Positions 15,723-15,808 of a stretch of DNA of 64,000 bases are shown here, piece by piece. Source of the DNA: a virus; the IMG/VR virus record IMGVR_UViG_3300044631_002422, positions 32,001 through 96,000 of that record; one strand, written 5' to 3'. Position 1 is the stretch's first letter. Each line of letters begins with the position of its first letter. The position numbers were made by a program, and so were the translations under genes. The notes beneath the pieces are model-generated. The model made no database searches, was not told where the DNA came from, and saw only the letters and a program-made list of their open reading frames with translations.

Positions 15723-15808
15723 GCTGGGTAACAGCCCATAAAAGCCTTCTAAGCTTTTGTCTTTAACGTATGGGATGGAAGACTAGAGTTCGATTCTCTT
15801 ATCCAGAG
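15723..15808 (+). ncRNA. D-armless tRNA-Arg(UCU)-like RNA with long variable arm
   Basis: CTGGGTA/TATCCAG acceptor, AAAGC-CTTCTAA-GCTTT anticodon arm, T loop TTCGATT, no D arm. Confidence 0.65.

What the first reader, a model, noticed from the sequence alone, without database searches (positions are those of the whole stretch)
15723..15808. D-armless tRNA-Arg(UCU)-like RNA whose D region could pair with the variable loop
Seen: the acceptor strand joins the anticodon arm (AAAGC-CTTCTAA-GCTTT) through only ACAGCCCATA. The variable arm is GTCTTT/GAAGAC with a 13-nt loop, and CCCATA (15735-15740) is exactly complementary to TATGGG (15769-15774) in that loop. Inference: a pseudoknot rebuilds the missing D stem, giving an alternative tRNA architecture that may still decode AGA or act as a decoy.
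Basis: partly seen in the sequence, partly recalled or inferred. Interest (0 to 1): 0.7.

Follow-up and report, generated by a model that had tools for sequence, protein, structure and literature searches.

The report
Rewired, pseudoknotted phage arginine tRNA
This 86-base gene of an uncultured lake phage is very probably an arginine (AGA) tRNA that does not fold as the textbook cloverleaf. One strand of its D stem lies after the anticodon arm and pairs back as a pseudoknot, a conserved design that tRNA finders miss and that I found in no paper.

Summary
Window 15723-15808 has an acceptor stem, a CUUCUAA anticodon arm (UCU), a UUCGAUU T arm and no D hairpin.

CCCAU(A) at 15735-15740 pairs with (U)AUGGG at 15769-15774, inside the loop of helix GUCUU/AAGAC. 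In one sequence this could be chance (about 0.9%). Comparison settles it:
- Pattern scans recovered about 70 relatives in phage contigs. The two 5-mers pair fully in 58 of 63, against 15% for mismatched partners.
- All five pairs show compensatory changes (0 of 500 shuffles). The crossing helix covaries too.
- A covariance model built from eight other phages finds this locus at 56 bits (E 2e-12), the only significant hit in the window.

Relatives sit inside tRNA arrays, usually encode CCA and keep 12 acceptor plus T pairs (8/4 or 9/3). They carry G-G-A where ArgRS reads A20, and they occupy arrays that lack a canonical tRNA-Arg(UCU). Rfam misses 12 of 12 and ARAGORN 57 of 58.

Charging and decoding are inferred, not shown. 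This copy alone has a G1·A72 mismatch. I found no publication. Earlier notes of this scan report the same class in at least six other genomes.

The parts
15723..15731 (+). Acceptor stem, 5' strand (GCTGGGTAA). 15724-15731 pair with 15799-15806. G15723 faces A15807 as a mismatch where relatives have G·U or G-C.
   Evidence: Sequence; parse tables; CM alignment.
15732..15734 (+). Three-nucleotide connector CAG, in the place of positions 8-9. Subgroup relatives have TAG, CAG or AAG.
15735..15740 (+). H1 5' strand CCCAT, plus A15740. It runs straight into the anticodon stem and so takes the place of D-stem positions 22-26.
   Evidence: Pairing with 15770-15774. Covariation across the family.
15741..15757 (+). 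Anticodon arm: stem AAAGC/GCTTT and loop CTTCTAA. The anticodon TCT is at 15748-15750 (UCU, reads AGA).
   Evidence: The stem is 100% paired with compensatory changes in relatives.
15759..15764 (+). V helix, 5' strand GTCTT(T).
   Evidence: Pairs with 15778/79-15783. Family covariation.
15765..15769 (+). Loop AACGT between the V 5' strand and the H1 3' strand. Relatives have an A-rich TAAA-type loop here.
15770..15774 (+). H1 3' strand ATGGG (with T15769 the helix has 6 bp). It takes the place of D-stem positions 10-13. Its pairing crosses the V helix, which makes the fold a pseudoknot.
15775..15779 (+). A-T-G-G-A, a D-loop-like segment. G15777, G15778 and A15779 are proposed equivalents of G18, G19 and A20. 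G-G-A is invariant in all 59 aligned relatives.
   Evidence: invariant G, G, A. (A after GG with Arg anticodons, U with Ile). The equivalence itself is inference.
15779..15783 (+). V helix, 3' strand AAGAC.
15786..15798 (+). T arm: stem GAG/CTC, with an optional fourth pair A15785-T15799, and loop TTCGATT.
15799..15807 (+). Acceptor stem, 3' strand (TTATCCAGA).
15808..15808 (+). Discriminator G in the 9/3 reading. In the covariance model's 8/3 reading the discriminator is A15807. No CCA is encoded.
   Evidence: Subgroup relatives also lack an encoded CCA.
15809..15815 (+). Run of seven T directly after the gene, a likely transcript end or 3' processing site. Relatives L003 and L007 also have a T run here.
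   Evidence: The terminator scan did not call it.

Best explanation
Window 15723-15808 is a gene for a 'rewired' tRNA with anticodon UCU. It belongs to a large, conserved phage family.

Shown:
- The RNA has normal acceptor, anticodon and T arms but no D hairpin.
- The strand just 5' of the anticodon stem (CCCAU) pairs with a strand that lies after the anticodon arm (AUGGG).
- That second strand sits inside the loop of a variable-arm-like helix (GUCUU/AAGAC), so the core is a pseudoknot.
- An invariant G-G-A follows the second strand.

Inferred:
- The new helix stacks on the anticodon stem as the D stem does: 5 + 1 + 5 layers against 4 + 1 + 5.
- G-G-A acts as G18, G19 and A20. The two G would dock on the T loop and rebuild the elbow, and the A would be read by host ArgRS.
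- The molecule is cut out by RNase P and 3' processing enzymes, receives CCA from the host enzyme, is charged with arginine and reads AGA. AGA is this AT-rich phage's commonest Arg codon, and the held half of the genome has no canonical tRNA-Arg.

Why phages use this wiring is unknown. Escape from host nucleases that target tRNA is a guess.
For: Structure:
- 58 of 63 relatives have 5/5 pairs in H1, against 15% for mismatched partners.
- All five H1 pairs show compensatory changes, 0 of 500 shuffles reach the observed values, and slid controls pair at 24-44%.
- The V helix, which the model did not fit, is 73% paired with GC, AU, CG and UA types. In the anchored test 37 of 59 have 4/4 pairs, against 14.5% for controls.

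Membership:
- A covariance model built from 8 other phages scores the window at 56 bits, E 1.8e-12. This is the only significant hit in 64 kb.
- The window's closest subgroup scores 55-65 bits.

tRNA-like behaviour of the family:
- Acceptor plus T stems sum to 12 bp: 8/4 in 46 of 59, 9/3 in the window's subgroup. CCA is encoded in 44 of 59.
- Members abut canonical tRNAs with 4-9 nt spacers. 19 of 58 lie within 300 nt of another tRNA.
- 56 loci hold about 180 canonical tRNAs but no canonical tRNA-Arg(UCU).
- Family anticodons are UCU, UCC and GUA. Related nested forms carry UCG, ACG, GCG, GAU and UAU.
- The base after GG is A in 34 of 36 members with Arg anticodons and U in most with Ile anticodons. 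This matches the A20 (Arg) and U20 (Ile) identity elements listed in PMC9976931.

This phage: 38% GC, AGA is 36% of Arg codons, and there is no canonical tRNA-Arg in 77.5 kb.

Feasibility: the E. coli translation machinery accepts a D-arm-less tRNA without adaptation (PMC11551756).
Against: - No RNA data exist for this locus, so expression, processing, charging and decoding are all untested.
- The window copy is the only one of 59 with a mismatched 1-72 pair (G·A). Its subgroup has G·U in about 12 of 14 and G-C in 2.
- It encodes no CCA, and the held half of the genome has no CCA-adding enzyme gene. It lies 11 kb from the phage's tRNA cluster.
- The single-sequence fold is not tRNA-like.
- A15779 is proposed both as the A20 equivalent and as part of the V helix. 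Both cannot hold at the same moment.
- No 3D model was made, so the L shape and the GG/T-loop contact are inference.
- The family was collected with patterns that fixed the anticodon loop or the GGA/T-arm motif, so the anticodon census is biased.
Confidence: 0.7

Rival explanations
1. The RNA has this structure but is a tRNA mimic, not a decoder. It would act as a decoy or sponge for a host anticodon nuclease or another tRNA-targeting defence protein, or as a regulator that binds a tRNA-binding enzyme.
For: The anticodon loop is strictly conserved (CUUCUAA) while the core is unconventional. Phage tRNAs are known to counter tRNA-targeting defences (PMC11555353, listed). The window copy has a terminal mismatch and no CCA.
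Against: The 12-bp acceptor/T branch is kept through 8/4 and 9/3 variants, which is an EF-Tu-type constraint, and CCA is encoded in 44 of 59. The identity-type base after GG tracks the anticodon. Several anticodons match AT-rich rare codons. The elements stand where a canonical tRNA-Arg(UCU) is absent. A decoy needs none of these features together.
Confidence: 0.12
2. The family is functional, but this copy is decaying. The G1·A72 mismatch and the isolated position would mark a pseudogene.
For: It is the only G·A at 1-72 among 59 members, and its subgroup almost always has G·U or G-C. It lies outside the tRNA cluster at 27048-27891.
Against: Every other pair of all five helices is intact. Its model score of 56 bits is within its subgroup's range of 55-65. 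tRNA-Lys at 11771 is also isolated. The sequence is identical in contigs of four further lake metagenome runs. A terminal mismatch is tolerated in some tRNAs (own knowledge: E. coli initiator tRNA has C1xA72).
Confidence: 0.13
3. The element is a chance set of hairpins with a terminator, or a partial tRNA left as a phage attachment site.
For: There is no Rfam or default ARAGORN call. The fold z-score is weak. A T run follows.
Against: E 1.8e-12 against a model built from unrelated phages. Both halves of the acceptor stem are present, and all helices covary in relatives. Flanking genes are not shared with relatives, so the RNA itself is what is conserved.
Confidence: 0.02

Closest known systems
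Canonical bacterial and phage tRNA-Arg(UCU) (Rfam RF00005; for example E. coli argU and T4 tRNA-Arg, both named from my own knowledge)
   Same: Acceptor stem, anticodon arm with U33 and A37/A38, UCU anticodon, UUCGAUU T loop, a G-G-A segment like G18-G19-A20, a place in phage tRNA arrays, and a likely role in supplying AGA decoding to an AT-rich phage.
   Different: There is no D hairpin. The D-stem-like helix is made by a strand before the anticodon arm and a strand after it, so strand connectivity is swapped and the core is a pseudoknot. The acceptor/T branch is 9/3 or 8/4 rather than 7/5. RF00005 and ARAGORN do not detect it.
allo-tRNAs and (8/4) tRNA-Ser and tRNA-His of bacteria and phages (Mukai et al. 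2017, PMC5389517)
   Same: A 12-bp acceptor branch split 8/4 or 9/3, a long variable-arm helix, and occurrence in phages.
   Different: allo-tRNAs keep a D hairpin with a long stem and tetraloop. The paper mentions no UCU member and no pseudoknot. Here the D hairpin is absent and the variable-arm loop supplies a D-stem strand.
Mitochondrial D-armless tRNA-Ser(UCU/GCU), for example Ascaris suum and mammalian mt-tRNA-Ser (PMC7609411)
   Same: No D hairpin. A short connector joins the acceptor and anticodon stems. By coincidence the anticodon is UCU in nematodes.
   Different: The mitochondrial tRNAs simply lose the arm, become flexible, and need adapted EF-Tu or aaRS. Here a compensating helix and a GG segment are conserved, the T arm is canonical, and the setting is phage and bacterial translation.
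Engineered D-arm-less mini HisT in E. coli (PMC11551756)
   Same: It shows that a bacterial aaRS, EF-Tu and ribosome can use a tRNA without a D hairpin.
   Different: It is an artificial deletion with no replacement helix. That paper states that all known bacterial tRNAs are canonical cloverleaves.
Plant-virus tRNA-like structures (TYMV type) and the tRNA-like domain of tmRNA (own knowledge)
   Same: tRNA mimicry that uses a pseudoknot or a reduced D region.
   Different: In TYMV-type structures the pseudoknot builds the acceptor stem, not the D stem. tmRNA has no anticodon arm. Neither is an adaptor with a normal anticodon loop.

Membership tests
Rewired pseudoknotted phage tRNA class (as defined by the relatives collected here; unpublished as far as I could find) | The 5-nt strand directly 5' of the anticodon stem pairs with a 5-nt strand that is followed by A-N-G-G-A. 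| tested here: met
   CCCAT 15735-15739 pairs with ATGGG 15770-15774, followed by ATGGA.
Rewired pseudoknotted phage tRNA class | A second helix (V) forms between the strand after the anticodon stem and the strand after G-G-A, crossing the first helix. | tested here: met
   GTCTT 15759-15763 pairs with AAGAC 15779-15783.
Rewired pseudoknotted phage tRNA class | Acceptor plus T stems sum to 12 bp, as 8/4 or 9/3. | tested here: inconclusive
   The 9/3 reading gives 11 pairs plus a G1·A72 mismatch. The covariance model reads 8/3.
Rewired pseudoknotted phage tRNA class | Significant score against a covariance model built without the window. | tested here: met
   56 bits, E 1.8e-12.
Canonical tRNA (Rfam RF00005) | [quoted passage not shown] | tested here: not met
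   Only 9-10 nt separate the two stems. There is no RF00005 match at E<=10 and no default ARAGORN call.
Canonical tRNA (Rfam RF00005) | Acceptor stem, a 7-nt anticodon loop with U33, and a T arm with the UUCRAnY loop. | tested here: met
Canonical tRNA (functional definition) | Aminoacylated at CCA and used by the ribosome. | not testable with these tools
   No RNA run was listed.
tRNA-Arg identity (bacterial ArgRS) | A20, C35, U/G36 and A/G73 (PMC9976931). | tested here: inconclusive
   C35 and U36 are present. The discriminator is G15808 or A15807. An A follows G-G, but calling it position 20 is inference.
allo-tRNA (Mukai 2017) | 8/4 or 9/3 acceptor branch with a long V arm. | tested here: met
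allo-tRNA (Mukai 2017) | D arm with a long stem and tetraloop, tRNA-Sec-like. | tested here: not met
   No D hairpin is compatible with the acceptor stem. TGGGT/GCCCA would use the acceptor strand.
Mitochondrial D-armless tRNA-Ser | The D arm is replaced by an unpaired connector, with no compensating helix and no D/T loop contact. | tested here: not met
   The compensating helix H1 covaries and a conserved GG segment is present.

The most novel reading that the evidence does not exclude
Phages carry a whole class of working, non-cloverleaf tRNAs. In them the D-stem strands are re-connected around the anticodon arm, here as a pseudoknot, while the L shape, the identity elements and the 12-bp EF-Tu branch are kept. 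These would be the first natural tRNAs of a non-canonical topology used by bacterial ribosomes. They may have been selected because the changed core escapes host nucleases or defence systems that recognise the normal D arm.
Probability: 0.6. Interest if true: 0.9.

Novelty: new variant of a known kind. Interest (0 to 1): 0.85.

Why it matters
The textbooks, and a 2024 paper (PMC11551756), state that all known bacterial tRNAs are cloverleaves. That paper adds that arm size is the only structural variation seen in cytosolic tRNAs.

A conserved phage family keeps every functional hallmark of a tRNA but swaps the connectivity of the D stem. If it works as a tRNA, it would show that:
- the cloverleaf is not the only natural solution for the bacterial translation apparatus;
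- tRNA censuses of phage genomes are incomplete, because Rfam and ARAGORN miss these genes;
- codon-usage and host-prediction analyses that rely on phage tRNAs need revising.

It would also offer a natural scaffold for orthogonal tRNA engineering. And it raises a testable question: does the rewiring protect phage tRNAs from host defences that target tRNA?

Tried and rejected
**Searches that gave nothing useful**
- BLAST of the locus against annotated phages. Megablast found no match. Sensitive blastn matched only the T arm, to Acinetobacter phage tRNA-Gly genes.
- The flanking proteins P0001 and P0002 have no relatives in viral contigs.
- An exact 21-mer gave no hit.
- Rfam has no family for the locus.
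- No RNA holder was listed. Contigs of four lake metagenome runs are identical over the parts they cover, so they gave no natural variants.
- The promoter and terminator scan found no own promoter and did not call the T run.
- There is no CCA-adding enzyme or ArgRS gene in the held 77.5 kb, which is about half the genome.
- About 92 of the 120 metagenome hits lacked a T loop downstream and were set aside, probably as chance matches. Fifteen were usable members of the window's subgroup.
- Six literature searches found no description.

**Methods that failed**
- Single-sequence folding. The MFE is not tRNA-like (z = -0.73). Either nested sub-fold costs about -15 to -16 kcal/mol, against an MFE of -20.
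- MAFFT alignments A1 and A3 put the H1 3' strand out of register between length classes. I used anchored segments (A2) and a covariance-model alignment (A5) instead.

**Readings rejected**
- ARAGORN's low-threshold cloverleaf (15713-15807). Its acceptor pairs 4 of 7 and its D stem has 2 pairs, and relatives do not support it.
- TGGGT/GCCCA as a D hairpin. It consumes the acceptor strand.
- An attP fragment. Both acceptor strands are present and conserved.
- An intron-containing or permuted gene. No single excision restores the canonical order.

Full report
**1. What is at the locus**

The window is part of a 77.5-kb IMG/VR virus record, estimated about 49% complete. It has 38% GC. All large genes lie on the + strand and include RNR, a DnaB-type helicase and a terminase-like ATPase.

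The finding lies in a 163-bp gap between two small + strand ORFs, 15495-15713 and 15877-16128. Seven T follow it directly.

- anticodon arm AAAGC-CTTCTAA-GCTTT at 15741-15757;
- helix GTCTT(T)/(G)AAGAC at 15759-15764 and 15778-15783;
- T arm with loop TTCGATT;
- an acceptor helix joining 15724-15731 to 15799-15806;
- CCCATA (15735-15740) complementary to TATGGG (15769-15774).

No D hairpin fits between the acceptor and anticodon stems. Default ARAGORN makes no call and Rfam finds nothing, even at E<=10. ARAGORN's relaxed mode forces a poor cloverleaf, with 4 of 7 acceptor pairs and a 2-bp D stem.

On its own the 6-nt complement has a chance probability near 0.9%, and the MFE fold is not tRNA-like. 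The case therefore rests on relatives.

**2. Relatives**

BLAST and the flanking proteins gave nothing. A pattern was then built from the anticodon arm, an over-long gap and a T loop.

A second pattern did not constrain the anticodon. It used the GGAWGGA motif plus the T arm, and it also hit the limit with 110 loci.

When parsed, most hits have a 7-9 bp acceptor stem, a linker of only 7-11 nt, a normal anticodon arm, a long middle region and a T arm. A reversed-sequence control gave 0 hits.

The window belongs to a 'B' type, which has T loop TTCGATT and the motif A-N-G-G-A. Within B it falls in a subgroup with linker N-A-G-CCNNN-A and a 9/3 acceptor/T split. That subgroup contains L003, L007, L082, L104, L120 and L342, plus 12 further metagenome sequences.

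These contigs share almost no flanking genes with the window. The RNA itself is what is conserved.

**3. Is the pseudoknot real?**

I tested H1 without an alignment. The 5-mer ending one base before the anticodon stem was compared with the 5-mer two bases before a GGA. It pairs 5/5 in 58 of 63 sequences. Linkers combined with other sequences' middle regions do so in 15% of cases.

More than 20 different complementary 5-mer pairs occur. In the window's subgroup alone they include CCAGC/GCTGG, CCACA/TGTGG, CCGAC/GTCGG, CCGGT/ATCGG, CCAGT/ACTGG, CCACC/GGTGG, CCCAC/GTGGG and the window's CCCAT/ATGGG.

On a MAFFT alignment of the H1-to-GGA segments, the count of structure pairs gives 95% pairing for H1, although about ten rows are out of register. 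All five pairs show changes on both sides. None of 500 shuffles reaches the observed values, and slid partners pair at 24-44%. This is as strong as the anticodon stem in the same alignment.

The crossing V helix was not part of the covariance model that produced alignment A5. It is nevertheless 73% paired, with GC, AU, CG and UA types at its central pairs. In the anchored test, 37 of 59 have 4/4 pairs, against 14.5% of controls.

**4. Membership of the window copy**

A covariance model was built from eight equal-length members from other phages, with the window excluded. It finds 15724-15807 at 56 bits, E 1.8e-12. The next hit in the window has E 0.14. The window's subgroup scores 55-65 bits with the same model, so this copy is not degraded relative to its kin.

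It has one peculiarity. The outermost acceptor position is G·A. Its subgroup has G·U in about 12 of 14 and G-C in 2. The window is the only one of 59 with a non-pair there.

**5. What the anatomy implies (inference)**

The H1 5' strand runs without a break, through a single A, into the 5' strand of the anticodon stem. Positions 22-26 do the same in a normal tRNA.

The H1 3' strand is followed by A-N-G-G-A, much as positions 10-13 are followed by A14...G18-G19-N20.

H1 (5 bp), the single A and the anticodon stem (5 bp) give the same number of stacked layers as the D stem, position 26 and the anticodon stem. The helix is therefore kept and only its strand connectivity is swapped. In the B type, the displaced strand is carried in the loop of a class-II-like variable arm.

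Related 'nested' types put the same strand directly after the anticodon stem, with no pseudoknot. I saw this by eye and did not test it formally.

**6. Evidence that the family works as tRNA**

- The acceptor and T stems always sum to 12 bp: 8/4 in 46 of 59, and 9/3 in the window's subgroup. CCA is encoded in 44 of 59.
- Members sit in tRNA arrays, with 4-9 nt to the neighbouring canonical tRNAs in L019 and L094. 19 of 58 lie within 300 nt of another tRNA.
- In 56 loci, ARAGORN finds about 180 canonical tRNAs of many specificities but no canonical tRNA-Arg(UCU). The one UCU call it makes overlaps a rewired element.
- B-type anticodons are UCU (most), UCC and GUA. Nested types have UCU, UCG, ACG, GCG, UCC, GAU and UAU, often several per phage. 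These are largely the AT-rich codons that phage tRNAs usually supplement (own knowledge).
- The base after G-G is A in 34 of 36 members with Arg anticodons and U in most with Ile anticodons. This matches the bacterial identity elements A20 for Arg and U20 for Ile (PMC9976931).
- In this phage AGA is the commonest Arg codon (36%), and no canonical tRNA-Arg is present in the held 77.5 kb.
- E. coli HisRS, EF-Tu and ribosomes accept an engineered D-arm-less tRNA without adaptation (PMC11551756).

**7. Distribution**

With the same motif pattern, about half of the viral-contig hits have this architecture, against 4 of 120 hits in the bacterial and archaeal genome collection. The class is strongly phage-enriched. 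Those four may be prophages or mis-binned phage contigs.

Rfam's tRNA model misses 12 of 12 tested members while finding 23 canonical tRNAs in the same loci. Default ARAGORN of 58.

**8. What is not shown**

There are no RNA data, no natural variants of this phage and no 3D model. Charging, decoding and the GG/T-loop contact are inferred.

The anticodon census is biased by the search patterns. The sequences are related to one another, so shuffle counts overstate independence. The many distinct complementary H1 sequences argue for repeated compensatory change all the same.

**9. Prior knowledge**

Six full-text searches, and a reading of the two most relevant papers on non-canonical tRNAs, found no description of such tRNAs. 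A 2024 paper states that all known bacterial tRNAs are canonical.

Earlier notes of this scan describe the same class in at least six other genomes and reach the same reading. I treat them as leads, not as evidence. The tests above were run independently here.

**Verdict**

The locus is most probably a working, non-cloverleaf tRNA-Arg(UCU).

Noticed in passing
window 10190-10317, 26955-27044, 27431-27566, 29410-29506, 48316-48401: Five further loci have a good acceptor stem and T arm but an abnormal middle. Relaxed ARAGORN reads 27431-27567 as tRNA-Leu(taa) with a 46-nt insert and 29369-29506 as tRNA-Gly(tcc) with an insert. The family model R1 does not hit them, so they are not the same class.
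   Followed up: partly
window 19226-19755: tRNA-Leu(CAA) interrupted by an intron of about 443 nt in the anticodon loop (ARAGORN intron mode).
   Followed up: no
window 29045-29333; L003:992-1347; L120:3938-4275: This phage encodes a tmRNA (Rfam, 77 bits). Two phages carrying the window's closest rewired-tRNA subgroup also encode a tmRNA.
   Followed up: no
window 3004-3065: Pistol ribozyme match above Rfam's gathering score (47.7 bits).
   Followed up: no
window 28007-29044: An ORF with an N-terminal methylation (pilin) motif and DUF1559 (PF07596, E 6e-49).
   Followed up: partly
L014, L059, L090, L112 and others: These loci carry nested, pseudoknot-free rewired tRNAs, several per phage, with anticodons UCU, UCG, ACG, GCG, UCC, GAU and UAU. 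By eye, the linker's 5' part (TAGC, TAAC, TAGT) also covaries with GCTG, GTTG and ACTG after the GGA. This was not formally tested.
   Followed up: partly
L131:3908-3994; L117:20-113: B-type pseudoknotted members with anticodon loop CTGTAAA (GUA, Tyr). They score 50 and 33 bits with R1. The architecture is therefore not restricted to Arg and Gly.
   Followed up: no
subgroup relatives: G1·U72 is nearly invariant in the 9/3 subgroup and common in the 8/4 group (24 of 59). A terminal wobble pair is unusual for tRNAs and may be a processing or identity signal.
   Followed up: no
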